Source: Thermoleophilia bacterium
GTDB taxonomy: Bacteria > Actinomycetota > Thermoleophilia > RBG-16-64-13
Direction: 5' to 3'
DNA: 64,000 bases
NCBI GenBank assembly: GCA_027493445.1
Contig: JAOSKU010000001.1
Coordinates: 3,609,845 to 3,673,844, forward strand
This document shows, in pieces, positions 8,820-56,927 of this stretch. The translations under genes were made by a program, and so were the position numbers. Within the stretch, counting starts at the first letter, position 1; each line of letters opens with the position of its first letter. The notes under the pieces were generated by a model that had not been told where the DNA came from, ran no database searches, and was given only the letters and a program-made list of their open reading frames with translations.

Positions 8820-8822
8820 CGG

Positions 8823-10815: not shown

Positions 10816-10825
10816 GGGGGAGGAG

Positions 10826-18012: not shown

Positions 18013-18023
18013 GGGAGAACGCC

Positions 18024-20319: not shown

Positions 20320-20322
20320 GTC

Positions 20323-24650: not shown

Positions 24651-24681
24651 TTCCACGTGATCAGGACCAGGAGGTGCGGGC

Positions 24682-39538: not shown

Positions 39539-39549
39539 CCGAGGATCCC

Positions 39550-40110
39550 ATGGCGATACCTTTCCGGCCGTCGGACTCCGTCGAGCTCGGTGAGGCCGCC
39601 TTCCTGCGGGTCATCCCCTTCGTCGATGGCGGCGGCTACGACGGCGCACTCTTTGTGATGGACGCCCGGGGCGAGCCGGTGGAGTTCTGCTTCTCGCGCA
39701 TCGAGACGCCCCGTACCGCGCTGTGGCGGCCCAGAGATCTCGCCCGGCGGGCTACGGTGGAGCTGACTCAATCGCTGCTGGAGGTCTGCTCCACCTCTCC
39801 CCTCCTGCTGCTCGCCCGGGCCGAAGAGGTGGGCCCGGATGTGCTCGGGCAGGAGCTCCTGGTGGAGATCCCGGTCTGCCGGGTGGCTTCGTCGCTCTCG
39901 CTGGCGGTGGTGTCTCCGGAGGAGCGGGAAGAGAAGGCGTCGGGGGAGGAGGCTCTGCACCTCTTCTGGTTCCCCGAACCCCCTCGGGATGGGGAGCCGG
40001 CCCGGCTGGTGATCGACCGGCTGGCGGCTTCGGGGCTCCTCACGGAGCCCTTCGAGCGGGCCGAGGCCGGGCTGCGGGAAGTGAGAAGCGAGGGGCCGGA
40101 GGAGCCATGA
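39550..40110 (+). CDS. Hypothetical protein D of the SNF2-associated cassette
   Basis: 186-aa ORF with coding-like composition. Its stop overlaps the start of the SNF2 gene (ATGA). Confidence 0.45.
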   Translation: MAIPFRPSDSVELGEAAFLRVIPFVDGGGYDGALFVMDARGEPVEFCFSRIETPRTALWRPRDLARRATVELTQSLLEVCSTSPLLLLARAEEVGPDVLGQELLVEIPVCRVASSLSLAVVSPEEREEKASGEEALHLFWFPEPPRDGEPARLVIDRLAASGLLTEPFERAEAGLREVRSEGPEEP

Positions 40111-42316
40111 GCCTCTTCGCCCGCGGCCCCGGCCCGGCTCGGACCCTGCGCGCGCGGGTGCCTCACCCCCGGGGATCGACGGCAGTGCGGCTCACGGTGC
40201 CTCGTCTGAACGAGAGGGCCGGGACCGCCAGGAGCTTCGCCCCCGTGGCGCATCCCGGGGACACGCTGCGAAGCTCGGCGGGAGCCCTCGCGCTCGGGCT
40301 CGCCACCCCACCGGCCACGTCGATCGGGCTGCGCGCGGGGCCAACGGCCGGGGTGGGACCGCTCACCGGGCGGGCGGCGCGTGCGGGGCACGCGGCGGAC
40401 GGTGAGGGCGTGGCCGGCGAAGCACCCGCCGGAGTCGGTGCAGGCCGGGGGAGCGTCCCCGAGGATCGGGCCTCGCTTCGGGAGCGGCTGCGCGCCGTTC
40501 TGGCGCCTCCGGTGGTCGCGCTCCTTCCTCGGGCCGGGTCCATCCTGCACTGGCCGGCCTCGCTTCACCCGTTTCAGCTCGACGGCGTGCGCGTGCTCCT
40601 CGCCAAGCCTGAGGTCCTCCTGGCCGACGACATGGGCCTGGGCAAGACCGTGCAGGCCATCGCCGCCTTGCGCATCTTGCTGCACCGGGGCGACGTCGAG
40701 ACGGCACTGGCGGTCGTGCCGGCCAGCCTCATCCACCAGTGGCGGCACGAGCTCACCCGCTGGGCCCCCGAGCTGCGCGTCAGCACGGTGGCCGGCTCCC
40801 GGGAGCAGCGCTTGTTTGCCTGGACTGTGGCGGCCCACGTCTTCCTCGTGACCTACGAGACCCTGCGCTCCGACTTCTCCCCCACCCAGGTTCGGGGCCC
40901 CGGCGCCGGACTTGGGGTATCGTGCTGCTCGACGAGGCGCAGAAGGTCAAGAATCGGGATGCCGACGTCAGCGCGGTGTGCAAGATGCTGCCGCGGACAC
41001 GTTCGTGGGCTCTGACGGGCACGCCCCTCGAGAACAGCGTCGACGACCTCGCGTCGATCCTGGAGTTTCTGCAGCCGAACCCTCGGGGTGAGCCCGCGCG
41101 CCCCCTCCGTTTCGATGCCTCGCTGGTCCAGCGACACGAGCAGGTGCAGCTGCGGCGCCGGAAGATGGACGTGCTGGAGGAGCTCCCCCCGAAGACCGTC
41201 AACCGTGTGCTCCTCGACCTGTTCGGCGAGCAGCGGCGCTCGTACGAACGGGCGGAAGAGGAAGGCGTGCTCGAGCTGCGCCGCCGGGGAGAGACCATTC
41301 AGCTGACCCATGTTTTGCAGCTCATCACTCGGCTCAAGCAGGTCTGCAACTTCTGCCCGGAGACCGGCGCCTCGGCCAAGCTGGCCGACCTGGCCGGCCG
41401 GCTCGAGGTGCTTGCCGCCGAGGGCCACAAGGTTCTGGTCTTCAGCCAGTACACCGACGAGATCTTCGGCGTCCGGGCGATCGCGCACGGCATCGGCGCC
41501 TTCAAGCCGCTCACCTACACGGGGGAGCTCACCCTGCAGGAGAGGAGCCGCCGGATCGACCGCTTCAAGAGCGACCCGCTGCACCGGGCTTTGGTGCTAT
41601 CGTTGCGCGCCGGAGGGCAGGGCCTCAACCTGCAGGAGGCTTCGTACGTGGTGCACTTCGACCGCTGGTGGAATCCGGCCACCGAGCGCCAGGCGGAGGA
41701 TCGCAGCCACCGCCTGGGCCAGACCGTGCCGGTGACTGTTTACACGTACACCTGCGCCGGGACCATCGAGGAGCGCATCGCGCAGCTTCTGGAGGAGAAG
41801 CAGAGGCTGTTCGACCTGGTGGTCGACGAGGTCAGCATGGACCTCGACCGCCTGCTGACAGCGGAGGACCTGTTCGGACTCTTCGGACTGCGGCCTCCTG
41901 GCCGCCCCCGCGGCCCGGAGGCCAAGGGCCGGCGCTCGTTCGCGGAGATGACCGGCCGGGAGTTCGAGGAGTACGTGGCCGATCTCTTCCGGGCCCTGGG
42001 GTTCTCCGTCGAGCTGACGCCGGCCACCCGCGACCGGGGAGTGGATGCCGTCGCGCGCCACGTGGACGTGGTGGGCATCGAGACCAGCCTGTACATCCAG
42101 TGCAAGAACCATGCTTCGCCGGTGGGGGTGGAGACGGTCCGGGCCCTCATCGGGGCGGTCCCGGCGGACGATCCCGGGGCGAGGGCGGTGCTGGTGAGCC
42201 CGTCGGGTTTCTCGGGCGAGGCGGCTCGGCTGGCCCGGGAGCGCGGCGTGCAAGTGGTCGACGAGAGGGGCCTTCGCGTACTGGCGGAGCAGGCGGCTCG
42301 CGGCTGCGGGCGGTGA
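40107..42316 (+). CDS. SNF2-family helicase fused to a C-terminal Mrr-like restriction-endonuclease domain, with an apparent 1-nt deletion in the C-run near 40898
   Basis: SNF2 N-terminus LDGVRVLLAKPEVLLADDMGLGKTVQA. DEAQ box WGIVLLDEAQKVKN (in ORF 40739..42316). Helicase-C motifs LVLSLRAGGQGLNLQEASYVVHFDRWWNPATERQAEDRSHRLGQ. C-terminal EFEEYVADLFRALGFSVELTPATRDRGVDAVA...IQCKNH (Mrr_cat-like). The first ~130 codons are low-complexity, so the start is uncertain. Confidence 0.8.
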
Positions 42317-42463
42317 GGTCGGTGAAAGGGGTTCTCGGGGCTCAGCCCTGGGCCACTGGCTTCCCGTGGGGACGGACGGGTGGTGCGGGATGCGAGCCGT
42401 AGCGGGATGGCGATTGCCCCGCCGGGAGAACCTGCCGCGACTCCTCGACTGACCACTGGGGGG

Positions 42464-42687
42464 TTACAGGAGCTCTCTGAACTCCTCGATTGTTAGGCCC
42501 GCCTGCCGGATGATGGCCCGCAATGTGCCCTTGGCATCTCGCTGTGGTTGGGGACCGTGATTCTTCGGTGGGGACGGGCGACCTGTCGCATGACGATGTG
42601 GCTGCCTCTTTGTCTATCTTTCTCGTACCCGACCTTCGTCAGGGCCGTCACCGCCTCCCGGCCAGATACTCGTGGGAGAGGGCTCAC
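42464..42687 (-). CDS. hicA: HicA-family toxin (mRNA interferase), with an apparent 1-nt deletion near 42530
   Basis: N-terminus SGREAVTALTKVGYEKDRQRGSHIVMRQ. After a -1 correction the C-terminus reads KGTLRAIIRQAGLTIEEFRELL, the canonical HicA tail. Confidence 0.7.
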
Positions 42688-42896
42688 ACCGCTACCTCGA
42701 CAACCTCCTCGTTGATCGACGGCGGTATGGGTTCATCATGGGCTTTCAAGCTTTCCAGATAGGCCTGCATCGCTTCCTGGATGTTGCGCACAGCCTCAGA
42801 GCGCGTCTTCCCTTGGGAAATGCACCCGGGCAACGAGGGTACCTCCGCGACGAACATGCCGTCTTCGTCCTGTTCGACTAGGACGCGATACTTCAT
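42684..42896 (-). CDS. hicB: HicB-family antitoxin (UPF0150)
   Basis: MKYRVLVEQDEDGMFVAEVPSLPGCISQGKTRSEAVRNIQEAMQAYLES. The start is preceded by GGGAGG. It overlaps hicA by 4 nt. Confidence 0.75.
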   Translation of the reverse strand: MKYRVLVEQDEDGMFVAEVPSLPGCISQGKTRSEAVRNIQEAMQAYLESLKAHDEPIPPSINEEVVEVAV

Positions 42897-43232
42897 GGAT
42901 GCCTCCCTTGCGCGTTCCAGCCCCGACCGCATGGGCGGCGCTTCAGTCTCCCATGCTCTTGAGCTGGACAAGCCACCACCCATTGTACACCGGCGGGTCG
43001 CGGGGTGGCCGCACGTGGACGACGTGCGGTCGCTGCCGGAAGGTGCAGTCACCCGGTGGATGAAGCAGCGGTGCGGACGAAGAACACGGTCTTCGACTTC
43101 AGCGGGCTCGCAGTCGCTGAGCGCATCCATCACGCCCAGATCTCCTCGAGTGACCCTGGCTCCGGCCACCCGTGGGAAGACGTTCGCGCCCCTATCTCCG
43201 CTCGTCTGCTGCAAGGCACGTGATGCCGAGCC

Positions 43233-44648: not shown

Positions 44649-44970
44649 GCGCACCGCCGCTAGTCCGTCCAGACCAATCACTGAACTGACCGCTTGGTCG
44701 CCGTTCGCCTCCACCGGTTCGTCACGCCGACCGTTCGGAAACGCGGCTTCGACCCGGCCACCCGGCTACGTAAGATGGTATGCGAGTGGGGAATCATCGG
44801 GGGGATTCTTTGCATCCACGCCTTTGCCCGCCGCCCGCGCTGCCCGCGCGCCGGCGCTTATGCGCCGGTGCGTGGGCGCCGGGCGCCGTCTGTATCCTCC
44901 CGCGACATGACGAAAGGAGCGCCATGGGGGCACAGGAAAGGCTTCGTCGAAGGGTGCGGAAAGGAGCAGC

Positions 44971-46960
44971 ATGGGTTTCACTGTAGATATCGACACAGGG
45001 GGGACCTTCACCGACGGCCTCTTCGGAGACGGCACCTCCAGCCGGCGGGCGAAGGTCGATACGACGCCGCACGATCTCACCATCTCCCTCTTCAACTGTC
45101 TCTACGCGGGCGCCGTCGCGTTCGGTCTGGCGAACGTCAAGGACCTTCTGCGCGGATGCGACATCGTGCGCTGGACGAACACCATAGCCACGAACGTCGT
45201 GGCGGAGCGGAAGGGGCCCCGAGTGGGCCTGTTCGTCACGCAGGGGCATGAGCGGTCCCTCTACTCCGGTAACGGTGAGAGTCCTGCCATCGGACACGTG
45301 GTGGGCGCCGAGAACATCGTCGGCGTCAGTCAGCCCGTGGACGTGGAGGACCTGCTGGTGCGGCTGAAATCGCTCCTCGACCAGGGAGTGCGCCGCATCT
45401 GCATCAGCCTCAAGGACGGCCTGGAGAACAGCGCCGACGAGGCCGCCGTCAAGCGGGTGTTCGAAGACCAGTATCCCGACCATTACCTCGGTACCATCCC
45501 GCTCCTCATGGGCAGCGACATCTCCAAGCATCCCGACGACATGACCCGCACGCACATGGCCCTGCTGAACGCGTATGTCCATGGGCCGATGGCCCAGGCC
45601 ATGTTCAAGGCGGAGGACGATCTGCGCCACGAAGGCTTCATCAAGCCTCTCCTGGTGGGTCACATCAACGGGGGCGTCACCAGGGTTGCGAAGACCAAGC
45701 CGGTGGACACCATCGAGTCGGGACCCATCTTCGGCATCCATGCCGCCGCCTACTTCGCGGAGAAGTACGGGCTGCCGCGGGTGGTGACCTTGGATGTGGG
45801 CGGCACCACCGCCAAGGTGGGTCTGGTGCAGGACGGCAGGCCCGCTCTCACACGCCCGGCGGACGTGCTGGGCATACCGCTGAACCAGCCCATGCTCTCA
45901 TTGAAGAGCATCTCGCTTGGCGGAGGGACGGTCGCCCGGGTGGCCGGCGGCGACCTGACTCTGGGCCCGGACAGCATGGGCGCGTACCCGGGCCCCGCAT
46001 GCTACGACCTCGGGGGTACCGAGGCCACGGTCACCGACGCGTATCTGGTGAGCGGCTTCCTCGATCCCGACTACTTCGCGGGGGGACCAAACGGGTAGTG
46101 CTGGAGCGCGCCAAGAAGGCGTTGGCCGAGGCCGTTGGGGGCCCGCTGGGGATCGATGAGCACGCGGCGGCCGCCAAGGTGGCCGAGGTGGCGGCCGATC
46201 TGGTGGCCGACGACGTGCGCCGGGCGCTGGCCACGCTCCATGCCGAGGCGCCGGACCAGGTGCTCTTCGCGTTTGGGGGAACGGGGGCATCGCGGCCGCG
46301 CGTGTGGCCGAGAAGGCGCACATCCGGAAGGTCGTGGTCTTCTCGCTGGGCTCGGTGCTGAGCGCGTTCGGCTCCTCCGTGGCCGACGTCGCCCACACCT
46401 ACGAGTACGCCCCGTTCCTGCCGGTGGAAGACACGGATCGGGTCGAGGCCTTGATCGACGACATGTGGGCGGAAGCCCGTCGGGATTTCCGCGGCGAAGG
46501 CTTCGTCGAGGCGGACATCGTTGCCGACGTGGAGTTCACCGTGACCCAGTCCCCCGACCATCACGCCGTGGAGGAGCTGGTATGTGGCTTCGCAGTGGAC
46601 GGCCCGCCGGAGCCGGGCAAGACCGGTCCCTGCCTCACGGCTGCCGGTGTCCGGCCGGGCAAGGATTCACTAGTGGAGATCGTACGTCTGCGCGCCCGGG
46701 TGCCGGCGGTCAAGACCGCCCTGCTGGAGCAGGCCCCCGGTGACGAGGACCCGAGCGGCGCGCGCAAAGGCAGCCGCACGGTGTGGTGGAATGCGGCGGG
46801 CGGTGTGGATTCCGCCCTGTACGAGTGGGACCGCCTTCAGCCCGGCGCGCGCGTCGTAGGCCCGGCCGTCATCGAGGGCGTCGACACCACCTACCTCGTT
46901 CCGGAGCATTGGGACCTCAGAATCGACAGCTTTGGCAACGGACAGATGGAGAGGAGGTAG
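44971..46960 (+). CDS. Hydantoinase/oxoprolinase A-family subunit (acetone/acetophenone-carboxylase-like paralogue 1), split by two single-G deletions near 46083 and 46276
   Basis: N-terminus MGFTVDIDTGGTFTD. ORFs 44971..46098, 45999..46361 and 46304..46960 join as FAGG|TKRVVLERAKK and FAFGG|NGGIAAARVAEKAH if each G-run has one more G. Total length is about 663 aa. Confidence 0.75.
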
Positions 46961-46965
46961 GCACG

Positions 46966-47340
46966 GTGGGTAGACGAGTCGCCATCACCGAGTACCTCGA
47001 CGTCGACATAGACGAGATGAAGTGGCTGTGCTCCGCCTGCGGCGCACAGCTCATCGACGCCGACGACAACTACAAGAAAGGGTGCCTGGTCCACGCACGC
47101 GATCCGCGTGAGGTCCACAACCCCGTCTTCGAAGCCGAGTACAACTTCGCTCCCGACCCCGCCTGGGTGCGGATCATCGAGTTCTACTGTCCCGAATGCG
47201 GGGTGCAGGTCGAGACCGAATACCTGCCCCTGGGCCATCCCGTCACGCACGACATCGACCTTGACGTGGCCGCGCTGCGGGCGCGCGTCGACGGCGGCGA
47301 GCTGACGATCGTCGACAAGCGGATGGAGGTGAGTCGGTGA
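46966..47340 (+). CDS. Acetone-carboxylase gamma-subunit-like small Zn-binding protein
   Basis: ITEYLDVDIDEMKWLCSACGAQLID...EFYCPECGVQVETEY with two Cys pairs. GTG 46966 is preceded by GGAGAGGAGG. Confidence 0.7.
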   Translation: MGRRVAITEYLDVDIDEMKWLCSACGAQLIDADDNYKKGCLVHARDPREVHNPVFEAEYNFAPDPAWVRIIEFYCPECGVQVETEYLPLGHPVTHDIDLDVAALRARVDGGELTIVDKRMEVSR

Positions 47341-49459
47341 ACACGATCGACATCGATGCGGGCGGCACGTTTACCGACCTCGTCTTGCGGGTGGACGGGC
47401 AGACCGTTATGAAGAAGGCACCCACCACTCAGTACGACCTTTCGGTCTGCTTCCTCAACGTGATCGAGGAGGGCGGGCGCGAGCTGGAGATGGAGCTCGA
47501 CCAGCTGCTGCCCAAGATCGACCTCGTGCGCTACTCCACCACCGTGGCCATGAACCGGCTGATCGAGCGTAAGGGCCCGGCCCTTGGACTTATCACCACC
47601 GAGGGGCAGGAAGACTGCATCCTCATCGGCCGCGGCGCCCAGTGGGTGGACGGCACCACTCCCTCCGAGCGCCGAAACTTGGCCATCCAGCAGAAGCCCG
47701 AACCGCTGATCCAGCGCGAGATGATCGTGGGGGCCAGGGAGCGGGTCGACAGCCTGGGCAAGGTCGTAAGGCCGTTGGACGAGGCGGCCCTGCGCGAGAG
47801 CATCCACTACCTGGTGGATAAGGGGGTGCGTGGCTTCGTGGTCTCGCTCCTCTGGTCGCACGTGAACCCGGTGCACGAGAGGCGGATCAAGGAGATCATC
47901 CGCGAGGAGTACAAGGACTACACCTTGGGGCACCTGCCGGTGGTCCTGGCCGGCGAGGTCATCGGCCGCTTGGGCGAGTATCAGCGCACCATGACCGCGG
48001 TGCTCGACGCCTACCTGTTCCGGGCCATGCAGATCGAGCTCTCCGGTATGTGGGACACGTTGCGCGGTTACGGCTACCGGGGCCCATTCATGATGGTGCA
48101 CAACTCGGGCGGTATGGCCGAGGTGTTCAAGACCGACGCCGTGCGCACCTACAGCGCCGGGCCGGTGGCCGGTCTCATCGGGTCGCACCATCTGGCCAAG
48201 AAGCTGGGCTACCGCAACGTAATTGCCAGCGACGTCGGGGGGACGAGCTTCGACGTGGGCGTGGTGGTGGACCAGAACGTGCGCAATTACGAGTTCCGGC
48301 CCATCATCGATCAGTGGATGGTGGGCATGACGATGCTGCAGACCATCTCCATTGGAGCGGGGGCGGTTCGATCGCCCGGATCAACGAGTTGGTGGGCAAG
48401 CGGCTCGAGGTCGGCCCGCAAAGCGCCGGTTCCTACCCGGGCCCGGCCTGCTACGACCAGGGAGGAGAGGAGCCCACCGTTACCGACGCCGACGTGGTGC
48501 TGGGCTACCTGGACCCCGACTTCTACTTCGGCGGCCGCATGCTCCTGGACAAGGCCCGTTCGGCGGACGTCATCAAGACCAAGATCGCCGACCCTCTGGG
48601 CCTACAAATACCGGAAGCCGCCTACCTGATCCGCAAGATCGTCGACTCGAACATGGGCGCCGCCATCCGCAAGCAGATCCACCTGCGGGGTTACGACCCC
48701 AAGGACTTCGTCCTGTTCGGTTTTGGGGGAGGCGGCCCGACCCACCTCACCGGCTACATGGGGGACATCCCGAAAGCCGTCGTCTTCCCCTTCTCGCCCG
48801 TCTTCTCGGCCCAGGGTTCGTCGGTGATGGACGTGGTGCACGTTTACGAGCTCTCTCGCCGTTTCATGCTCATGGAGCCCATGACCCGCACCTTCGCCAC
48901 CGACTTCGCCGCCTTCAACGAGGCCGTGGAGTCGCTGATCGAGAAGGCGAAGAAGGAGTTGGCCGGCGAACGGCTGCCGGTGGACACGGCTGTGTTCCGT
49001 CTGGAGCTCGACATGCTCTACGGCGGGCAGGTGCACCGCAAGCGGGCGAGCTCGCCCCTGCTCCGGATCGAGTCGGAAGCGGATGCCCGCGCGGTCTACG
49101 AGGAGTTCGAGCGCGAGTTCAGCGAGACCTTCAGCCCCCTGGTGGTGCACCAAGACGGGGGGGTCTACGTGGAGAACTTCGTGGTCACGGCGAGTGTCCC
49201 CACCGAGAAGCCCGAGATCCGCACCTACACCGGCAACGGCGCCGGCCCGGAGAAGGCCCGCAAGGGGAGCCGCAAGTGCTACTGGGGCGAGGCGGGAGGC
49301 TTCGAGGAGACCGAGGTGTACGACTACAACGGGCTGGCGCCCGGTCACGCGATCGCGGGCCCGGCCATCCTCGAGACCGAGTACACCACCGTGGTGGTGC
49401 CCCCGGCATTCCACTGCAGCATCGACGAGCACATGTTCGGCCACATCGTGCGGGCCTGA
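47337..49459 (+). CDS. Hydantoinase/oxoprolinase A-family subunit (paralogue 2; acetone-carboxylase beta-like), with an apparent single-G deletion near 48361
   Basis: N-terminus MNTIDIDAGGTFTD. ORFs 47337..48629 and 48050..49459 join at TISIGAG|GGSIARINELVGK. Total length is about 707 aa. Confidence 0.8.
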
Positions 49460-49470
49460 AAGGAGGGACG

Positions 49471-51531
49471 ATGCCGTTCCCCACAGCTGAAGAGAAACTG
49501 GCCATGATCAAGGTGGTGCCGCCCGAGGCTGACGAGCTCCGGTGCGTCTACGCGCTCGGTCAGGGCGAGTACGAGGTGGGCTTCGAGCGCACCAACAACA
49601 TCCTCGACGAGGCCATGGAGGTGTTCACCCGCTCCTCGCGCAGCTCCATGGGAGTCGCCGGAGACTCCATGGTGGCCCTGTTCACCGCGCAGGGCGACCT
49701 GGCCAACGCCAGCTGCGGCACCTATCTGCACGCGGTGATCCAGCCCATCATCATCAAGTACATCCTCAAGCAGTACGGGAAGAACCCGGGCATCAAGGAA
49801 GGGGACGTCTGGTTCACCAACGACGCTCTCTACGGAGGTATCCACAATCCCGACGAGCTGATCCTCATCCCCGTCTTCTACCAGGGAGAGCTCATCGCCT
49901 GGACGGGCGCGGCGGTGCACACCAGCGAGACCGGGGCCATCGAGCCGGGTGGTATGCCGGTGACGGCCACCTCCCGCTTCTCGGAGGGGATGAACTGCCC
50001 GCCCATCAAGATCGGTGAGAAGGGCGAGATCCGCGAGGACTTCCTGGAAATGATCGGCATCTTCGGCATGCGGGCGCCGCAGATGGTGGTCATCGATCTG
50101 AAGGCTCGGGCCACCGGGGCCGACCGGGCCCGCAAGCGACTGGTGGAGCTGGCCGATGAGCGCGGCCGTGACTACGTCGTGGGCCTCTTGCGCAAGATGC
50201 TGCTGGTGGCGGAGGAGGGTGCCCGTAAGCGCATCAGCTCCTGGCCGGACGGCGATTTCACCTGCGTCAACTTCGCCGACAGCGCCGGCATCGAGATGGG
50301 CCTGCTGCGCACTAGCCATCTCACCCTGCGGAAGAAGGGCGATCACCTCACCTTCGACTTCACCGGCATCTCACCGGAGACCCCCTACTCCTACAACGCG
50401 CACGTGCAGGCCGTGGTGGGACACATCTCCAACTTCGTGTACGAGTACATCTTCCACGACCTGCCCATTTCGAGCGCGGCCTTCGCGCCCATCGACTTCG
50501 TCTTCCCGCCCAACACCTGCCTGAACCCGGACGCCCGGGCCGCCACGAGCTGCTCCGTGATGATCGCTACCGGGGTCATGAGCGGCGTGCATAACGCGTT
50601 CGGCAAGATGATGTATTGCACGCAGGAGATGTGGCGCCAGGTGTCGGCCTCCCAGGGCAACGCCGGCAATGCCACAGTGGTGGCCGGTCTCTCCCAGTGG
50701 GGCTTGCCCTTCGCCGACATGCCCGCCTACTCGCTCAACAGCGAGGGCCAGGGCGGCCGGCCTACCATGGACGGCGTGAACGCCTTCGGCTTCCCCTGGT
50801 GCGTCTACGGACGCACCCCGGACGTGGAAGAGATGGAGAACGACCTACCGGTCATCATCCCTCTCTCGAATCACTGGGTGGATTCCTGCGGTCACGGCAA
50901 ATACCGGGGCGGCGTGGGCACTGTGCAGATCTGGGTGACCCACCATGCGCCCGCCATCTACTTCATGGCCATCTCCGACAACAGCAAGATGCAGACTCCG
51001 CAGCCACTGTTCGGCGGCTACGCGCCGGCCACCGTACCGGGCATCAGCGTGCGCGGCGCCGACATCATGCAGAAGATGGCCGAGGGCGGGGAGTTCGCAC
51101 TGGACGCGATGAAGATCCTCGCGGAGCAGACCGTGAGCGGAGACTGGCAGTATGAGTTCTTCGGTCGCAGTGTGCGCCCGTACAATCTGGGCGACATCAT
51201 CACCTTCGGCTTCGCCACGGGCGGCGCCGGCTACGGCGATCCGCTCGACCGCGACCCGGAGCTGGTGATGCAGGACATCAAAGACAAGATCATCTCCGAA
51301 TGGTCGGCCGAGAACGTCTACAAGGTCACGTACGAGGCCGCGACCATGCGTCTGGACGAGGCGGCCACGGCCGCCGCCCGTGACGCCGAGCGTGCGGCCC
51401 GGCTGGGCCGGGGCAGGAGCTACCAGGAGTTCGAGGCCGAGTGGCTTACCATGAAACCGGACGACTCGCTCCTGAGATTCTACGGCACCTGGCCGGACGC
51501 CGAGATGGTGGCGCCGGTGTTCCGGCCGTAG
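49471..51531 (+). CDS. Hydantoinase B/oxoprolinase-family subunit (acetone-carboxylase alpha-like)
   Basis: 686-aa HyuB-family protein. AGGAGGGACG precedes the ATG. Confidence 0.85.
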   Translation: MPFPTAEEKLAMIKVVPPEADELRCVYALGQGEYEVGFERTNNILDEAMEVFTRSSRSSMGVAGDSMVALFTAQGDLANASCGTYLHAVIQPIIIKYILKQYGKNPGIKEGDVWFTNDALYGGIHNPDELILIPVFYQGELIAWTGAAVHTSETGAIEPGGMPVTATSRFSEGMNCPPIKIGEKGEIREDFLEMIGIFGMRAPQMVVIDLKARATGADRARKRLVELADERGRDYVVGLLRKMLLVAEEGARKRISSWPDGDFTCVNFADSAGIEMGLLRTSHLTLRKKGDHLTFDFTGISPETPYSYNAHVQAVVGHISNFVYEYIFHDLPISSAAFAPIDFVFPPNTCLNPDARAATSCSVMIATGVMSGVHNAFGKMMYCTQEMWRQVSASQGNAGNATVVAGLSQWGLPFADMPAYSLNSEGQGGRPTMDGVNAFGFPWCVYGRTPDVEEMENDLPVIIPLSNHWVDSCGHGKYRGGVGTVQIWVTHHAPAIYFMAISDNSKMQTPQPLFGGYAPATVPGISVRGADIMQKMAEGGEFALDAMKILAEQTVSGDWQYEFFGRSVRPYNLGDIITFGFATGGAGYGDPLDRDPELVMQDIKDKIISEWSAENVYKVTYEAATMRLDEAATAAARDAERAARLGRGRSYQEFEAEWLTMKPDDSLLRFYGTWPDAEMVAPVFRP

Positions 51532-51535
51532 GCGG

Positions 51536-52639
51536 GTGTGGGGCGTGCGCGAGCGCGGCGTTTCTCGGGTGCGGGAGCAGCGTCTGAGGCAGGGCGGCTT
51601 GTTCGTACCGCTCGTGTTCTCGTTCGCCGCTTCGCTGGAGCAGCTGACGCCCGAGGCGTTCCTGGCTTCGGCGACGAAGGCGTCGAACGGACTGCGGACG
51701 GTGTTCGCCTCGTTCGACGTGGACGGCGTGGCCGGCTGGTGCGACGATACCGCGCCCGCGGACACGTTGAGTTGCACGCTCGACTGGTGCACATACCCTC
51801 CGGCGGTGGTGGAAGCGCCACCGCCGGAGGTAGCCCCAGACCTCGGCCGGATCGGGGTGGCGGGCGCCACCGGCGTGGCCACCGACGTCGTGCGCCGCTT
51901 GGGCTCCCTGCTTCCTGACACCGTGCTCGTGGGCACTATGCCCGGTCCGGTGACCTTGGCCCGGCAGCTGGCCGGTCCGGGTGCGGGCGGCCCGGACTCC
52001 GGCGACTCCACGCCTGGGGAAGGCCTCGAGCGGGTGCGCGTCGCCGCCAAGGCCTGCCTGGCGTACGCCAAAGCGCTCGGAGACGCGGGTCTGGACCTGC
52101 TTCTGGTGCGGGAGGAGGCCCTACTCGTCCCCACCGACGGCGTGTCGGCCGGAGACATCGCGCGCCTGTACTCGTCGATCTGGAACACGGCGCGCTTCTA
52201 CGGTCTTACGGCGTTGCTTGCGCTCGGAGGTGAAGGCGCGCGTGACGTCGTCGGCGGCAGGCACGATGCCCGCGCCGGCGCGGGAGGGCCTTCGGCGCAA
52301 TCCGCCTCGGCGTACTCCGCGGCCGGCCTACTCGCGCTTGCCGGGGTGGTCGATGGGTTGGTGGCTCCTCCCGCATTGATCGAGCACTGGAGCGATGTGC
52401 TCGACCACGGCTTCAGGCGCATCGGACTGGCTCTTCCCGCGAATCTACCCGCCCAGCCGGTCGACGTGATCGACGCGTACCTGCGGGGGCACGCAGTTGC
52501 CGAGCGGATGCGCGACGGGCGACTGTTCCTTGTCACCACCGACGGCGAGGTGCCGCCGAGCACCGATCGAGCCGCCTTGCTCGTTGGCCTGATGACGATT
52601 CGCGATCACGTGAGAGGAGCGGGTGCTCGTGACGCCTGA
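51536..52639 (+). CDS. Hypothetical protein in the carboxylase operon
   Basis: 367-aa Ala/Gly-rich ORF between the HyuB-like gene and the CoA ligase. No motif recognised. Confidence 0.4.
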   Translation: MWGVRERGVSRVREQRLRQGGLFVPLVFSFAASLEQLTPEAFLASATKASNGLRTVFASFDVDGVAGWCDDTAPADTLSCTLDWCTYPPAVVEAPPPEVAPDLGRIGVAGATGVATDVVRRLGSLLPDTVLVGTMPGPVTLARQLAGPGAGGPDSGDSTPGEGLERVRVAAKACLAYAKALGDAGLDLLLVREEALLVPTDGVSAGDIARLYSSIWNTARFYGLTALLALGGEGARDVVGGRHDARAGAGGPSAQSASAYSAAGLLALAGVVDGLVAPPALIEHWSDVLDHGFRRIGLALPANLPAQPVDVIDAYLRGHAVAERMRDGRLFLVTTDGEVPPSTDRAALLVGLMTIRDHVRGAGARDA

Positions 52640-53954
52640 GCGGAGTTACTGGAACGAGCGGATGGAGACGGTGTCCCCCGAGGAGTTCCGGCGGGTGCAG
52701 GAGGCGGCGCTCTCGCGCCAGCTCGACTACCTGTGGGAGCACTCGGACTTCTACCAGGCCAAATGGGCGGCCGCCGGCCTCGAACGGGGCGACGTGACCG
52801 GTCTCGACGACCTGGCCAAGCTGCCGTTCACCGAGAAGAGCGAGCTGCGCGACAGCCTCGCCCAGCATCCACCGTTGGGGAGTCACCGGGCCTGCGCGTT
52901 GGATGATGTGATCCGCGTCTACTCCACCAGCGGCACCACCGGCAATCCCACCTACATCGGTCTCACCGCTCACGACCGCGACGTCTGGATGGAGACCGCC
53001 AACCGGGCCATGTGGTCGTGCCGCATGCGGCCGGAGCATGTGGTACCGCTGCCCATCGGCACCTTCTTCATCGCCGCCTCCTACGGCGAGGCCATCGAGC
53101 ATCTTGGCGCCATGCTGGTGCCGGTGGGGGTGGGAGCCACCGACCGCTTCCTCGGGGCCGTGCGCAACCTGAGGGCCGACTTCGTGCTCTCCACCGCCTC
53201 GTTCCCGCTCTATCTCATCGACTACTGCGAAGGCAAAGGCATCGACACGCGTAGGCTTGGCATCAAGGGCTTCATGGTGGGGGGTGAGCCCGGCGGAGGC
53301 ATCCCGCAGGTGCGGCGGCGGATCGAGGACGCCTTCGGGGCCACGGTGCGGGAGTGCATGGGCAACGGCGACATGCTCGGGCTAATTTGGGCGGAATGCG
53401 AGGCGGGGCCGGGCATGCATTTCATCGGCCAGGGCGCCTGCCATCCCGAGATCATCGACCCAGAGACCGGTGAGTCGCTCGAGATCCGCCAGGGCCTCAC
53501 CGGCGAGCTCGTTTACACCTCCCTCGACCGCGAGTGCCAACCCCTGGTCCGCTTCCGCACCCGCGACCACGTGCTGGTGGTGCGCATGGAGTGCGAGTGC
53601 GGGCGCACAGGCGTCGCCGTTAGCTGCATCGGCCGGACCGACGACATGCTCATCGTGTCCGGGGTGAACGTGTACCCGGCCGCGGTGCGTGACGTGATCG
53701 GCGGGTTCCAGCCGCGCATCACCGGTGAGTTGGTGATCGAGCTTCACGAGAAACCGCCCACCGTGAGGCCGCCCATGAAGATCCGGGTGGAACACGGCCC
53801 CGAGCCCGGCGATCTGGCCCAACTCAAGAGGGAGATCGAGCACCTCCTGCGGGAGAAGCTCATATTCCCGAGCGACGTAACGCTGGTGCCGGCGGGGACC
53901 CTGCCGAAGTTCGAGTACAAGGCCAAGCTCACCGAGGCGCACTACGAGGAGTGA
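52623..53954 (+). CDS. paaK: Phenylacetate-CoA ligase-like adenylate-forming enzyme (PaaK / F390-synthetase family)
   Basis: YSTSGTTGNPTY AMP-binding motif. N-terminal EEFRRVQEAALSRQLDYLWEHSDFYQ. C-terminal VSGVNVYPAAV. Confidence 0.85.
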   Translation: MLVTPERSYWNERMETVSPEEFRRVQEAALSRQLDYLWEHSDFYQAKWAAAGLERGDVTGLDDLAKLPFTEKSELRDSLAQHPPLGSHRACALDDVIRVYSTSGTTGNPTYIGLTAHDRDVWMETANRAMWSCRMRPEHVVPLPIGTFFIAASYGEAIEHLGAMLVPVGVGATDRFLGAVRNLRADFVLSTASFPLYLIDYCEGKGIDTRRLGIKGFMVGGEPGGGIPQVRRRIEDAFGATVRECMGNGDMLGLIWAECEAGPGMHFIGQGACHPEIIDPETGESLEIRQGLTGELVYTSLDRECQPLVRFRTRDHVLVVRMECECGRTGVAVSCIGRTDDMLIVSGVNVYPAAVRDVIGGFQPRITGELVIELHEKPPTVRPPMKIRVEHGPEPGDLAQLKREIEHLLREKLIFPSDVTLVPAGTLPKFEYKAKLTEAHYEE

Positions 53955-53962: not shown

Positions 53963-54709
53963 CTACAACCGCAGGGCGTTCTTGAGCTCGGGGAGCGCCC
54001 GGCGCGACACCGGCACTTCCTGGAGCCGGCCCGCCCGCAGGCGGAGCTCGTACTTGGAGGGGCTCACCACCTCGATCTTCTCGATCATGCGCAGGTTGAT
54101 GATGAACGAGCGATGCACGCGTAGGAAGGGCGGGTGGGGAAGGAGCTCCTCCAGCTCGGCGAGGGAGTAGCTGCTCGAGAGCAGGGATTCGGTGGACGTG
54201 TGCACGCGGCAGTACTGACGCTCGGCCTCGAACACGACGATGTCCTCGAGCGGCAGGAGCTTGATGGTGTCCGCGGAGTGCCGTACCGGGAAAAGGTCGA
54301 TGAGGCCCCTGGGCGGCGGTACGAGGTTGGCCTCCGCCGCGTGGAAGAACTCTAGCAGGTGGGCCATCGCCAGACCGAAGCGCTGCGGCGGAACCGGCTT
54401 CAGCAGGTAATCGTGGGCCGCCACCTCGAAGGCTCGCAGCGCGAACTCCTCGTAGGCTGTGACGAAGATGATGTAGGGTCGCGGATGGAGCCGGCTCGCC
54501 GTCTCGGCGACCGTGATGCCGTTGTCGCCGGGCAGGTTGACGTCCAGGAACAGGATGTCGAACGGCCTTTCCCGCAAGAACCGCTGGGCCTCGGCGGCAT
54601 TCCCGGCCTCCGCGCCCACTTCTATCATGGGGAACGACAGCAGCAGATGCCTGATCTCTCTGCGGGCGAATGGTTCGTCGTCAACGACGAGCGCTATCAG
54701 CGGGCGCAA
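53963..54709 (-). CDS. LytTR-family response regulator
   Basis: REC domain (LIALVVDDEP, phospho-acceptor D in ILFLDVNLP) plus a C-terminal LytTR domain (FLRVHRSFIIN). Confidence 0.9.
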   Translation of the reverse strand: MRPLIALVVDDEPFARREIRHLLLSFPMIEVGAEAGNAAEAQRFLRERPFDILFLDVNLPGDNGITVAETASRLHPRPYIIFVTAYEEFALRAFEVAAHDYLLKPVPPQRFGLAMAHLLEFFHAAEANLVPPPRGLIDLFPVRHSADTIKLLPLEDIVVFEAERQYCRVHTSTESLLSSSYSLAELEELLPHPPFLRVHRSFIINLRMIEKIEVVSPSKYELRLRAGRLQEVPVSRRALPELKNALRL

Positions 54710-56047
54710 GATCCCTCCTCGTGCGGTTGTCGGAATCGGCTCGGGTCGCGGGCAGCGAGACGATCAGTCTCAGACCGGGGGCCCTGTTCTCGACGGTCAG
54801 ATTCCCCTGCTCGCCGGCGAGCGCCTGGAGCCGGCGCCTGGTGTTGCGTATGCCCACTCCTTCGCGGAGGTCGCTGGACTCGTCCAGGAGCTCGGCCAGC
54901 TCGGCGTCCGTCAGCCCATGCCCGTCGTCCTCCACCTCTACTCTCAGCCTTTGGTCGGCGAGGCGCGCCCGCGCGATGATCCGGATGTGGCTCCCCTGCA
55001 GGCCATGGATGATGCAGTTCTCCACCAGCGGCTGGAGGATCAGGACCGGCACCAGGCAGTGCATCGTCTCCGAATCGACCTCTTCGTGGTAGCTGATCAC
55101 ATCGGGGAAGCGGATGCTCTCGATCTCCAGGTACTCGCGTACGAGGGAGAGCTCCTCTTGGAGAGTGATGTACTCCGTGCGGATGCGGAACGTGCGCCGG
55201 AGCAGCGAGCTGAGACGCAGCACCACCGTCCGGGCCACCTGCGGGTCGACGACGCAGGCGGAGCTGATGGTGTTGAGGACGTTGAAGATGAAGTGCGGGT
55301 GGATCTGGGCCTTCAGCGCCCGCATCTGGGCCTCGGTGGCCATCTGCCGCTGCACTTCGATCTCGTTGAGCTCGAGTTGGGTGGAGAGAAGGCGGGAGAG
55401 GCCCTCGGCCAGGACCCGGTCTTCCTCGCCTATGGTATCGCGGGCCGTGCGGTAGAACTTCATCGTACCGGCCGACTTACCCGACACCACCAGCGGGGCG
55501 ATCACCCCGCAGGCGAGGCGGCAGCTGGGGTAGGCGCAGCGGATCTCCTCCGGGCTGTGAGCCATCGCCACGCGCATGTCCCGCAGAGCGGTGCGGGTGG
55601 CCTCGGTGGCGACCAGGTCGCCCCTAAGGTGGTGCTCAGCTTCGGCTCCCTCAAAGGCCAGGATGCGCTCGGTGTTGGTGATGGCAATGGCATCGAAGTC
55701 GAGCTCGCGGAAGAGCACCCGTACCAGGTCGCCGGCCGACCCGGGACCGAGTCCGGTCCTCAATATCGGCAGCGACATCTCCACGATGGCGAGTATGGTG
55801 CGTGCCCGCTCGTCGTGCCGATCACCCGTGGGGGGCGGGGCAGTTCGCGCGAGCGCCGCGCCGGAAGGCAGGGTGAGAACAGCCACGATCGCGAGGGCCA
55901 GAGCAAGGGGGGCGACGACAAAGAGGCCGGATGACTGGCGCGCAGCAAGAAGGAGTACCACCAATGCCGCTCCCGCGACGGCGAACATCGCCCAGCGGCC
56001 TCGTGGAGTCCGGCGCAGCTCACCCAGCGCAACGATGATCTTCGGCA
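54681..56047 (-). CDS. LytS/YehU-type sensor histidine kinase
   Basis: His_kinase block QIHPHFIFNVLNTISS and HATPase block (ENCIIHG...DDGHGL). N-terminal TM segments. ATG at 56047 follows GGGGGA. It overlaps the response regulator by 29 nt. The longer ORF extension upstream looks non-coding. Confidence 0.8.
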
Positions 56048-56240
56048 TGAGTCCCCCTGGCGAGCGCGAAGGGATGGCGATTCGGACGTTCCCCGACCTT
56101 GTGATTGTACAATACTCGCGGACGAGGTTTCCCCTCGCTGGGTGTCGGCCTACCCGCTGCGGGCGACGCGGATCACCCGGCACGAATTGCGTCACCTGGT
56201 ATGATGTACAGAACAATGTACATATACGTGCGGGGGCCCT

Positions 56241-56504
56241 GTGATGCGCCAGACCACATTCTCCGAGCTCAGACGACATGCCAAGGACTACTTCGATGCA
56301 GTGGAGGAGGGCGACGTGGTGCGTGTGTATCGAAACGGTCGTCCGATCGCCGACATCGTACCCATCCCGGCCGCGGAACCGGCTTGGAAACGTCCCGTTG
56401 CGCGATTGGCGGTGCGGGGAGGGCTGGCATCCCAAGCGGTCATCCAAGGACGGGCGGAAGGGTCGGTGAAGGACCCTGCTCCCGGCTCTGGCGGAAGACC
56501 GTGA
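56241..56504 (+). CDS. Phd/YefM-type antitoxin (VapB partner)
   Basis: MMRQTTFSELRRHAKDYFDAVEEGDVVRVYRNGRPIADIVPI is the Phd/YefM fold signature. It lies immediately upstream of the PIN gene. Confidence 0.6.
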   Translation: MMRQTTFSELRRHAKDYFDAVEEGDVVRVYRNGRPIADIVPIPAAEPAWKRPVARLAVRGGLASQAVIQGRAEGSVKDPAPGSGGRP

Positions 56505-56513: not shown

Positions 56514-56927
56514 ATGAGGATGTTCTTCGACACGTCTGCCTTGGTGAAGCGATACATCGAAGAGCCGGAGAGCGACACCGTCGCCCGACTCCTCGAAGGC
56601 GCGGAGAGCCTCATCGTGTCGGCCCTCTTCCTGCCAGAGTGCGTGTCGGCCTTCCGGCGCCTGGTCCGCGAAGGCCGCCTGTCGCCTCGGGAGTACGAGC
56701 AGCTGAAGGGTACGGTGCTGGCGGACCTGGCTGACGCGATCATCTGTCACGTCGTGCCTGAGGTGGTCGACCTCGCCGTCGATTGTCTGGAGCGTCACGC
56801 TTTGCGCACTCTGGACGCGATGCAGCTCGGGTGCGCGCGTGCTGTGGGTCCCGATCTCTTCGTCACCGCAGATCGGCGGCAGGAGGTGGCCGCCGCCGCA
56901 GACGGCCTTGCCGTCAAGCTGGTGTAG
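56514..56927 (+). CDS. vapC: VapC PIN-domain toxin
   Basis: MRMFFDTSALVKRYIEEPE...LGCARAVGPDLFVTADRR. The conserved PIN acidic residues are present. Confidence 0.8.
   Translation: MRMFFDTSALVKRYIEEPESDTVARLLEGAESLIVSALFLPECVSAFRRLVREGRLSPREYEQLKGTVLADLADAIICHVVPEVVDLAVDCLERHALRTLDAMQLGCARAVGPDLFVTADRRQEVAAAADGLAVKLV

What the first reader, a model, noticed from the sequence alone, without database searches (positions are those of the whole stretch)
44971..53954. Acetophenone/acetone-carboxylase-like operon with two HyuA paralogues, a gamma subunit and HyuB, linked to a PaaK-type CoA ligase
The arrangement is HyuA-like (44971-46960), a small Zn-binding gamma subunit (46966-47340), a second HyuA-like (47337-49459), HyuB-like (49471-51531), a hypothetical and a PaaK-family ligase, all co-directional and overlapping by a few bases. 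It mirrors ATP-dependent ketone carboxylases: acetone carboxylase AcxABC, and acetophenone carboxylase with its alpha, alpha-prime, beta and gamma subunits. The coupling to an aryl-acetate-type CoA ligase and the neighbouring aldehyde dehydrogenase suggests an aromatic or alkyl ketone catabolic module. An adjacent LytS/LytTR two-component system may regulate it. The substrate cannot be read from the sequence.
Basis: partly seen in the sequence, partly recalled or inferred. Interest (0 to 1): 0.55.

Follow-up and report, generated by a model that had tools for sequence, protein, structure and literature searches.

The report
Acetophenone-carboxylase-type operon, intact despite assembly frameshifts
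This is an ordinary member of the known apcABCDE-plus-CoA-ligase operon type for ATP-driven carboxylation of aromatic ketones, found in an uncultured actinobacterium; the two largest genes look broken in this window only because of homopolymer sequencing errors.

Summary
The six co-directional genes are at the stated coordinates. As written in the window, however, the two HyuA-like genes are not open reading frames. Gene 1 has two frameshifts and gene 2 has one, each a single missing G in a G-run.

An independent assembly of the same strain (99.96% identical over 20.9 kb) has those runs one base longer. It encodes intact proteins of 663 and 707 aa. The breaks are therefore homopolymer undercalls, and similar breaks occur across the window.

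With the frames repaired, all five subunits match acetophenone carboxylase (Apc) of Aromatoleum aromaticum one-to-one:
- alpha-prime: 42% identity
- gamma: 55%
- alpha: 60%
- beta: 59%
- the "hypothetical": a divergent ApcE (epsilon, URO-D fold)

Matches to acetone carboxylase and hydantoinase are far weaker. Gene order, subunit lengths and signature motifs meet the published Apc criteria. The PaaK-family ligase sits where bal sits in the reference operon, and such ligases flank apc clusters in other phyla. A LytTR/His_kinase pair stays linked to the operon in two relatives.

All subunits score below NCBIfam's equivalog cut-offs, and 3 of 7 putative pocket residues differ, so the exact ketone is unproven. 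The "neighbouring" aldehyde dehydrogenase is 18 kb away.

The parts
44971..46960 (+). apcA-like gene (Apc alpha-prime; HyuA-type ASKHA kinase subunit, proposed bicarbonate-activating). 663 aa once two single-G undercalls are restored, at G-runs 46080-46085 and 46275-46279.
   Evidence: Pfam Hydant_A_N, Hydantoinase_A and Hydant_A_C. Best PDB hit is 5L9W chain b, 523 bits, 42% identity, full length. NCBIfam AcphenoCarb_ApcA 620.7 bits, cut-off 1250. Intact 663-aa gene in L004. Lacks the R/KERiDsxG motif, as expected for alpha-prime (sequence).
46966..47340 (+). apcB-like gene (Apc gamma; small four-Cys Zn-ribbon subunit, 124 aa).
   Evidence: Pfam Acetone_carb_G, E 4.9e-34. 5L9W chain C 157 bits and 55% identity, against 45 bits for Acx gamma. 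NCBIfam ApcB 181 bits, cut-off 250. CxxC...CxxC present in the sequence (alignment).
47337..49459 (+). apcC-like gene (Apc alpha; HyuA-type ASKHA kinase subunit, proposed ketone-activating). 707 aa once one G undercall at G-run 48359-48363 is restored.
   Evidence: Pfam Hydant_A_N, Hydantoinase_A and Hydant_A_C. 5L9W chain B 973 bits and 60% identity. NCBIfam ApcC 1053 bits, cut-off 1500. RERVDSLG motif present. Intact 707-aa gene in L004.
49471..51531 (+). apcD-like gene (Apc beta; HyuB-type subunit, 686 aa).
   Evidence: Pfam Hydantoinase_B, E 2.8e-86. 5L9W chain A 981 bits and 59% identity over the full length, against 158 bits for acetone carboxylase. NCBIfam ApcD 1061 bits, cut-off 1500.
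51545..52639 (+). apcE-like gene (Apc epsilon; URO-D-fold accessory subunit, 364 aa).
   Evidence: NCBIfam AcphenoCarb_ApcE is the only hit, E 9e-8, 31.8 bits. A profile of 16 homologues against PDB finds 9FOU_A ApcE best, E 1.3e-13. The AF2 model (pLDDT 78, pTM 0.82) has 9FOU ApcE as top Foldseek hit (E 7.7e-14, TMt 0.78), followed by uroporphyrinogen decarboxylases. 32% identical to the gene in the same position in L005 and L008.
52629..53954 (+). PaaK-family acyl-CoA ligase in the position of bal (benzoylacetate-CoA ligase). 441 aa. The start codon is GTG here and ATG in L004.
   Evidence: Pfam AMP-binding plus AMP-binding_C_2. PDB phenylacetate-CoA ligases 4R1L and 2Y4O, 204 and 193 bits. 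NCBIfam PaaK models 245 and 205 bits, below cut-offs of 700 and 646. 49% and 38% identical to PaaK-like ligases beside the apc genes in Paradesulfitobacterium (L009) and Desulfatiglans (L008).
53963..54709 (-). LytTR-family response regulator, convergent with the operon; candidate regulator.
   Evidence: Pfam Response_reg plus LytTR. NCBIfam BtsR/LytR-like. Orthologues (80-91% identity) lie beside the apc operon in L001 (upstream) and L002 (downstream).
54681..55988 (-). LytS-family (PF06580) histidine kinase, about 435 aa. It has an N-terminal hydrophobic anchor and no 5TM-Lyt domain.
   Evidence: Pfam His_kinase plus HATPase_c. The L004 gene call is 435 aa. Hydropathy shows hydrophobic residues at about 1-50. 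Coding signal ends near 55.8-56.0 kb.

Best explanation
The locus is an intact apcABCDE-plus-ligase operon of an uncultured actinobacterium.

Inferred mechanism, by homology with the Aromatoleum enzyme:
- The alpha subunit (47337-49459) uses ATP to phosphorylate the enol form of an aryl methyl ketone, either acetophenone or a close analogue.
- The alpha-prime subunit (44971-46960) uses a second ATP to make carboxyphosphate from bicarbonate.
- Beta forms the dimeric core, and gamma is a Zn-ribbon structural subunit.
- The URO-D-fold epsilon subunit docks transiently and is needed for the coupled carboxylation that yields a beta-keto acid (benzoylacetate).
- The PaaK-family ligase then converts that acid to its CoA thioester, which a thiolase encoded elsewhere would cleave.
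- The adjacent LytTR/His_kinase pair probably controls expression.

Shown here: gene content, order, one-to-one orthology, motifs, the epsilon fold, and intactness in an independent assembly.
Inferred: the chemistry, the substrate and the regulation.

The three frameshifts in the window are homopolymer undercalls of the assembly, not biology.
For: One-to-one best hits to 5L9W chains: 981, 973, 523 and 157 bits, at 59, 60, 42 and 55% identity over the full length. Acx, caprolactamase and hydantoinase score far lower.

The NCBIfam best model for each subunit is ApcA, B, C, D and E respectively.

Epsilon: the profile hit to ApcE 9FOU has E 1.3e-13, and 9FOU is the Foldseek top hit with E 7.7e-14.

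Criteria published in PMC5214803 are met:
- order alpha-prime, gamma, alpha, beta, epsilon;
- lengths of 686, 707 and 124 aa;
- four Cys in gamma;
- DxGGTxTD, DVGGT and GxYPGP motifs in both alpha and alpha-prime;
- RERVDSLG only in alpha;
- alpha-prime polar residues E248, D274 and K281 conserved.

The reference operon is apcABCDE-bal. PaaK-like ligases flank apc genes in Desulfatiglans and Paradesulfitobacterium. In relative L002 an SDR gene overlaps the ligase stop, as ped does functionally in the ethylbenzene pathway.

The LytTR/HK linkage is kept in L001 and L002 despite rearrangement.

Intactness:
- L004 is 99.96% identical, with 663- and 707-aa genes. All six indels are G/C runs of 6 or more that are shorter in the window. 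That is 6 of 19 such runs, against 0 of 33 runs of length 5.
- L001 and L002 orthologues are single-frame.
Against: - Every subunit is below NCBIfam's equivalog cut-off: 620.7/1250, 181/250, 1053/1500, 1061/1500 and 31.8/450.
- Three of the seven residues proposed to line the ketone pocket differ from the characterised enzyme: L81M, F281Y and N282S. This variant is shared by a large clade.
- Only one Apc has ever been characterised, and PMC5214803 itself warns against functional assignment of distant members.
- No ethylbenzene dehydrogenase, alcohol dehydrogenase, thiolase or benzoyl-CoA pathway gene is present in the 64 kb.
- That the reference Bal is itself PaaK-like was not verified here.
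- Regulation by LytTR rests on synteny only.
Confidence: 0.75

Rival explanations
1. The machinery is the same Apc-type five-subunit ATP-dependent carboxylase, but the physiological substrate is not acetophenone. It could be a hydroxylated, amino- or heteroaromatic ketone, or an aliphatic methyl ketone. The ligase would then act on a different beta-keto acid.
For: - Pocket substitutions L81M, F281Y and N282S make the pocket more polar. They are shared by the actinobacterial, L005 and Desulfatiglans clade.
- All scores are below equivalog cut-offs.
- Epsilon is only about 19-20% identical to ApcE and about 70 aa longer.
- No ethylbenzene-pathway genes lie nearby.
- PMC5214803 cautions that the Apc branch is diverse.
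Against: - Four of seven pocket residues and all alpha-prime residues are conserved.
- Core subunits are 55-60% identical to the reference enzyme.
- The aryl-acetate-type ligase is retained.
Confidence: 0.2
2. The operon is decaying. The three frameshifts are real, so apcA and apcC are pseudogenes in this organism.
For: The window sequence as given has three frame breaks in the two largest genes.
Against: - An independent assembly of the same strain has intact genes. It differs from the window by one substitution and six homopolymer contractions in 20.9 kb.
- Breaks of the same kind hit the SNF2-Mrr gene and sbcD. A further break splits the V/A-ATPase A subunit, and two apparent breaks lie in a hydrogenase small-subunit gene and an MFS gene.
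- GC3 coding signal continues undiminished across each break.
- Relatives have single-frame orthologues.
Confidence: 0.03
3. It is an acetone carboxylase (AcxABC-type) for small aliphatic ketones.
For: It has the same Pfam domains, including Acetone_carb_G.
Against: - Scores against Acx chains are only 158, 358 and 45 bits, against 981, 973 and 157 for Apc.
- Acx has one HyuA-type subunit, gene order acxABC with gamma last, a 168-aa gamma, a 776-aa HyuB-type subunit, and no alpha-prime or epsilon. None of this fits.
Confidence: 0.01
4. It is an ATP-dependent hydantoinase, oxoprolinase, lactamase or caprolactamase (an amide hydrolase), not a carboxylase.
For: The HyuA and HyuB domains are shared. 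Caprolactamase models give secondary hits.
Against: - Hyd-type loci are two-gene hyuAB without gamma, alpha-prime or epsilon.
- PDB 6YRA and 7HK5 score only 118-295 bits.
- The HyuB-type subunit is 686 aa, against about 580 in Hyd.
Confidence: 0.01

Closest known systems
Acetophenone carboxylase operon apcABCDE-bal of Aromatoleum aromaticum EbN1 (core complex PDB 5L9W; ApcE PDB 9FOU)
   Same: - Same six-gene order: alpha-prime, gamma, alpha, beta, epsilon, CoA ligase.
- One-to-one best matches for all five subunits.
- Same subunit sizes.
- Four-Cys gamma.
- ASKHA ATP motifs in both alpha and alpha-prime.
- R/KERiDsxG only in alpha.
- URO-D-fold epsilon.
   Different: - Identity is 42-60% for the core subunits and about 20% for epsilon.
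- Epsilon is about 70 aa longer.
- All subunits are below NCBIfam equivalog cut-offs.
- The pocket differs by L81M, F281Y and N282S.
- The host is an actinobacterium rather than a betaproteobacterium.
- There is no adjacent ebd/ped cluster.
- The adjacent regulator is a LytTR/His_kinase pair, not AdiRS.
Apc-like clusters in uncultured Actinomycetota (L001, L002), Desulfatiglans (L008), Paradesulfitobacterium aromaticivorans (L009) and an abundant metagenomic lineage (L005-L007)
   Same: - Same apcABCD order, followed by a gene of about 290-356 aa at the epsilon position. The L005 and L008 copies are 32% identical to the window's epsilon; the L009 copy gave no BLASTP hit.
- Beta is 62-87% identical.
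- Same M/Y/S pocket variant in most.
- A PaaK-like ligase is adjacent in L001, L002, L008 and L009.
   Different: - The ligase position varies: upstream in L009 and absent in L005-L007.
- Flanking genes differ.
- L002 adds an SDR after the ligase.
- L003 (58% beta identity) lacks an adjacent epsilon and ligase.
Acetone carboxylase AcxABC (Xanthobacter autotrophicus and Aromatoleum; PDB 5SVB, 5M45)
   Same: Same superfamily and the same HyuA, HyuB and Acetone_carb_G domains. It is an ATP-dependent, biotin-independent ketone carboxylation.
   Different: - A single HyuA-type subunit, with no alpha-prime and no epsilon.
- Gamma is encoded last and is about 45 aa longer.
- The HyuB-type subunit is about 90 aa longer.
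- Bit scores are 3- to 6-fold lower.

Membership tests
[quoted passage not shown] 2017, PMC5214803) | Gene order apcABCD(E): alpha-prime, gamma, alpha, beta, then epsilon | tested here: met
   44971-46960, 46966-47340, 47337-49459, 49471-51531 and 51545-52639, all on the + strand. Criterion quoted.
Acetophenone carboxylase (Apc) branch | Subunits group with Apc rather than Acx or Hyd in sequence comparison | tested here: met
   PDB phmmer gives Apc 981, 973, 523 and 157 bits, against Acx 158, 358, 170 and 45 and Hyd 118-295. The NCBIfam top model is ApcA-E one-to-one. No full tree was built.
Acetophenone carboxylase (Apc) branch | Characteristic subunit lengths (HyuB-type about 680 aa, gamma about 125-130 aa; shorter than Acx, longer than Hyd) | tested here: met
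   686, 707, 663 and 124 aa here, against 684, 732, 658 and 129 in 5L9W. Acx is 776, 717 and 168; Hyd beta is 581.
Acetophenone carboxylase (Apc) branch | Signature motifs: four Cys in gamma; ASKHA PHOSPHATE1, PHOSPHATE2 and ADENOSINE motifs in alpha and alpha-prime; R/KERiDsxG in alpha only | tested here: met
   - Gamma: C-S-A-C and C-P-E-C.
- Alpha: DIDAGGTFTD, DVGGTSFD, GSYPGP.
- Alpha-prime: DIDTGGTFTD, DVGGTTAK, GAYPGP.
- RERVDSLG in alpha; the aligned region of alpha-prime reads VSQPVDVE.
Acetophenone carboxylase (Apc) branch | Separate epsilon subunit (ApcE) required for activity | tested here: met
   The gene is present. The ApcE HMM gives E 9e-8, the profile against 9FOU gives E 1.3e-13, and Foldseek against 9FOU gives E 7.7e-14 with TMt 0.78. 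The requirement for activity is not testable here.
Acetophenone carboxylase (Apc) branch | NCBIfam equivalog score cut-offs for ApcA-E (same function as the characterised enzyme) | tested here: not met
   620.7/1250, 181/250, 1053.4/1500, 1061.5/1500 and 31.8/450.
Acetophenone carboxylase (Apc) branch | Putative acetophenone pocket of Apc-alpha (L81, F281, N282, P285, I333, Q344, T345) | tested here: inconclusive
   The window has M, Y, S, P, I, Q, T, so 4 of 7 are identical and 3 are conservative changes shared by a large clade. The pocket assignment itself is tentative in PMC5214803.
Acetophenone carboxylase (Apc) branch | ATP-dependent (2 ATP to 2 ADP) carboxylation of acetophenone to benzoylacetate | not testable with these tools
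   Needs an enzyme assay.
Acetone carboxylase AcxABC | Three genes, acxA and acxB followed by gamma (acxC); a single HyuA-type subunit; a long gamma (about 168 aa) and a long HyuB-type subunit (about 776 aa) | tested here: not met
   The window has two HyuA-type genes, gamma in second position, a 124-aa gamma and a 686-aa HyuB-type subunit.
Hydantoinase/oxoprolinase HyuAB | Two-gene hyuAB locus without gamma, alpha-prime or epsilon | tested here: not met
   Gamma, a second HyuA-type gene and epsilon are all present. Criterion.
Phenylacetate-CoA ligase PaaK (equivalog) | Scores above NCBIfam PaaK cut-offs, with AMP-binding plus AMP-binding_C_2 architecture | tested here: not met
   The architecture is met, and PDB PaaK gives 204 bits. 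The equivalog scores of 244.6/700 and 205.4/646 are not met. It is a PaaK-family member but not PaaK itself.
LytS/LytTR two-component system | Response regulator with receiver plus LytTR domain; kinase with PF06580 His_kinase plus HATPase_c; 5TM-Lyt sensor domain in the kinase | tested here: inconclusive
   The response-regulator domains and the kinase core are met. No 5TM-Lyt domain was found, only an N-terminal hydrophobic stretch of about 50 aa.

The most novel reading that the evidence does not exclude
The actinobacterial/Desulfatiglans 'M-Y-S' pocket clade of Apc-like enzymes, with its longer and highly divergent epsilon subunit and LytTR-type control, may carboxylate a ketone other than acetophenone, for example a polar-substituted or heteroaromatic methyl ketone. 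That would define a second substrate specificity in a family where only one enzyme has been characterised.
Probability: 0.2. Interest if true: 0.4.

Novelty: new member of a known kind. Interest (0 to 1): 0.2.

Why it matters
The locus adds an actinobacterial example to a widespread but biochemically almost unexplored enzyme family. More than 950 ApcD-like proteins were found at E <= 1e-100, yet only one Apc has been characterised.

It shows that the epsilon subunit and a PaaK-family ligase travel with the core genes across phyla.

Practically, it is a caution. The window carries roughly one homopolymer frameshift per 7 kb, so apparent pseudogenes in it should not be taken at face value.

Tried and rejected
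- Pseudogene or programmed-frameshift reading of the three breaks. Rejected after comparison with L004 and with L001 and L002.
- afdb50 fold search for epsilon. The library was unavailable, so PDB Foldseek was used instead.
- Literature searches for ApcE with uroporphyrinogen decarboxylase, and for benzoylacetate with PaaK. They found nothing, so I could not confirm from papers that the reference Bal is PaaK-like.
- The ApcD homologue search did not list the Aromatoleum protein among its best 120 hits. The reference apcE and bal genes could therefore not be fetched as DNA.
- Rfam and tRNA scans of the whole window gave no hits.
- The sigma-70 promoter and terminator scan upstream of apcA gave nothing.
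- A functional link to the aldehyde dehydrogenase was rejected on distance and on the unrelated intervening genes.
- The 705-aa ORF for the kinase was rejected in favour of about 435 aa, because the upstream part lacks coding signal and protein-like sequence.

Full report
**1. Observation**

ORF listing and translation show co-directional genes on the + strand at the coordinates given. The two "HyuA-like" genes, however, are not continuous ORFs in the window.

The first gene reads in frame 1 from 44971 to a stop at 46098. It continues in frame 0 for about 200 nt and then in frame 2 to 46960. The second gene starts at 47337 in frame 0 and continues in frame 2 from about 48355 to 49459.

A GC3 frame plot and a simple frame HMM show strong coding signal running straight through each switch. 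Each switch lies in a G-run: 46080-46085, 46275-46279 and 48359-48363. Adding one G at each site gives proteins of 663 and 707 aa.

- Hydant_A_N, Hydantoinase_A and Hydant_A_C in both genes
- Acetone_carb_G in 46966-47340 (E 4.9e-34)
- Hydantoinase_B in 49471-51531 (E 2.8e-86)
- AMP-binding plus AMP-binding_C_2 in the last gene
- Response_reg plus LytTR, and His_kinase plus HATPase_c, on the minus strand

**2. Are the frameshifts real?**

An exact-protein look-up of the HyuB-type product found a Logan contig from run SRR11288142 (L004). In it the two HyuA-type genes are called as 663 and 707 aa.

L004 aligns to window 40620-61528 at 99.96%. The differences are one substitution and six indel events. 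Every indel is a G or C run that is shorter in the window: C6 to C5 at 40878, G7 to G6 at 46079, G6 to G5 at 46274, G6 to G5 at 48358, G6 to G5 at 60287, and C6 to C4 at 60347. Six of the 19 runs of length 6 or more differ, and none of the 33 runs of length 5 differ.

Orthologues in two actinobacterial MAGs (L001, L002) are single-frame and have the extra base at each site.

Frame breaks also occur elsewhere in the window:
- The SNF2 domain is split between two frames at about 40.9 kb.
- The V/A-ATPase A subunit is split at about 11.26 kb.
- Apparent breaks lie in a hydrogenase small-subunit gene (about 21.05 kb) and an MFS gene (about 35.9 kb).

The pattern of almost no substitutions, length-dependent homopolymer contractions, and unrelated genes affected is that of assembly error. 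I conclude the operon is intact in the organism.

**3. What the genes are**

Against all PDB sequences, each core subunit has the corresponding chain of the Aromatoleum aromaticum acetophenone carboxylase core complex (5L9W) as its best hit over its full length:

| Subunit | 5L9W chain | Bits | Identity |
|---|---|---|---|
| HyuB-type (beta) | A | 981 | 59% |
| HyuA#2 (alpha) | B | 973 | 60% |
| HyuA#1 (alpha-prime) | b | 523 | 42% |
| gamma | C | 157 | 55% |

Acetone carboxylase chains score 158, 358, 170 and 45 bits. Hydantoinase, oxoprolinase and N-methylhydantoinase score 118-295 bits.

NCBIfam's best model is ApcA, ApcB, ApcC and ApcD respectively.

The "hypothetical" (start 51545 by the L004 gene call) hits only NCBIfam AcphenoCarb_ApcE, at E 9e-8. 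A profile of 16 homologues finds PDB 9FOU (ApcE) first, at E 1.3e-13, and a URO-D-superfamily methyltransferase second. An AlphaFold2 model (pLDDT 78, pTM 0.82) has 9FOU ApcE as top Foldseek match (E 7.7e-14, TMt 0.78, 19% identity), followed by uroporphyrinogen decarboxylases. It is therefore a divergent, longer ApcE.

**4. Published criteria**

Weidenweber et al. 2017 (PMC5214803) give four rules for separating Apc, Acx and Hyd:
- gene order apcABCD(E), that is alpha-prime, gamma, alpha, beta, (epsilon);
- phylogenetic branch;
- subunit lengths;
- motifs: four Cys in gamma, ASKHA ATP motifs in alpha and alpha-prime, and R/KERiDsxG in alpha only.

All are met here.

The proposed polar bicarbonate-site residues of alpha-prime (E248, D274, K281) are conserved. 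Of the seven residues proposed to line the ketone pocket of alpha, four are identical and three differ conservatively (L81M, F281Y, N282S). The same M/Y/S variant occurs in L001, L002, an abundant metagenomic lineage (L005) and Desulfatiglans (L008).

All five subunits fall below NCBIfam's equivalog cut-offs. Membership of the Apc branch is therefore supported, but identity of substrate with the characterised enzyme is not established.

**5. The ligase and the pathway**

In A. aromaticum, apcABCDE is followed in one operon by bal, which encodes benzoylacetate-CoA ligase (PMC4729919).

The window's sixth gene is a PaaK-family ligase. PDB phenylacetate-CoA ligases score 204 and 193 bits, and it is below the PaaK equivalog cut-offs.

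PaaK-like ligases of about 440 aa also lie next to apc genes in Desulfatiglans (downstream; 38% identity) and in Paradesulfitobacterium aromaticivorans (immediately upstream; 49% identity). They also lie next to apc genes in L001 and L002 (85-88% identity).

In L002 an SDR gene overlaps the ligase stop codon. This would fit a secondary-alcohol dehydrogenase that feeds the carboxylase. I could not verify from the literature that Bal itself is PaaK-like.

**6. Regulation and context**

The LytTR response regulator (53963-54709) and the PF06580 kinase are convergent with the operon. The kinase is about 435 aa (54681-55988), has an N-terminal hydrophobic anchor and shows no 5TM-Lyt domain.

Orthologues of the response regulator lie beside the apc operon in L002 (downstream) and L001 (upstream, divergent). 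The linkage therefore survives rearrangement. This supports a regulatory role but does not prove one.

The reference organism uses a different system, AdiRS.

The upstream region of apcA holds a block conserved in all three actinobacterial loci, CCGTTCGGAAAC...TAAGATG.

The rest of the window does not encode aromatic catabolism. Its contents are:
- PLD-like and ABC/FtsX genes
- a V/A-ATPase operon
- Fe-S/FAD proteins and a NiFe hydrogenase
- aldehyde dehydrogenase (25448-26944)
- trehalose synthesis genes
- a CFA synthase
- an MFS transporter
- BrxC/D-like genes and an SNF2-Mrr gene
- HicB
- then, downstream of the operon, a PIN gene and SbcCD

The aldehyde dehydrogenase is 18 kb away and is not a neighbour.

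**7. How common is this?**

The ApcD-like family has at least 959 members at E <= 1e-100. They come from Actinomycetota, Chloroflexota, Desulfobacterota, Firmicutes, Pseudomonadota and others, and many are already labelled "acetophenone carboxylase" by their sources. The epsilon family of this clade is small in the word-indexed search (16 hits).

**8. Verdict**

This is an Apc-type, not Acx-type, five-subunit ketone carboxylase operon with a bal-position ligase. It is intact in the organism and probably under LytTR control. The exact substrate remains open.

It is a new member of a known kind and of low general interest. The main practical finding is that the window's frameshifts are homopolymer artefacts.

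Noticed in passing
window about 11262; about 21050; about 35896; 40878; 60287; 60347: There are further frame breaks outside the operon. Two are shown by Pfam domains split across frames: the V/A-ATPase A subunit, and an SNF2-Mrr helicase/nuclease at a C-run. Two in sbcD are shown by comparison with L004. Two more, in a NiFe-hydrogenase small-subunit gene and an MFS transporter gene, are apparent from reading the frames. That is roughly one break per 7 kb. Those covered by L004 are homopolymer undercalls, so the whole window is error-prone at G/C runs of length 6 or more.
   Followed up: partly
window 44912-44986: The ribosome-binding site plus start codon of apcA is duplicated 47 nt upstream (GAAAGGAGCGCCATGGG and GAAAGGAGCAGCATGGG). 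This creates a 20-codon upstream ORF that ends just inside apcA. It is conserved in L002 and absent in L001.
   Followed up: partly
window about 44720-44770 (aligned with L002 about 5250-5300 and the L001 upstream region): A sequence block, CCGTTCGGAAAC followed about 30 nt later by TAAGATG/TATGATG, is conserved upstream of apcA in all three actinobacterial loci. It is a candidate promoter or regulator-binding site.
   Followed up: no
window 52629: The only substitution against the independent assembly falls on the ligase start codon, which is GTG in the window and ATG in L004.
   Followed up: no
window 36275-42900: A defence-island-like stretch lies directly upstream of the operon. It holds two BrxC/BrxD-like ATPase genes, an SNF2 helicase fused to an Mrr-type restriction endonuclease domain, and a HicB-like antitoxin.
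   Followed up: no
L002 14418-15263: In the closest MAG relative, a short-chain dehydrogenase gene overlaps the stop of the ligase gene and so extends the operon. No such gene follows the ligase in the window.
   Followed up: partly
window 14934-23471: A cluster of FAD/Fe-S (heterodisulfide-reductase-like) proteins lies with NiFe-hydrogenase small and large subunits and a maturation protease, next to a V/A-type ATPase operon (6683-14722).
   Followed up: no
window 23444-25448 and 55989-56500: These stretches have weak or no coding signal. The first holds what looks like a fragment of a membrane transporter. The second is upstream of the kinase gene and next to a PIN-domain gene (56514-56927).
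   Followed up: no
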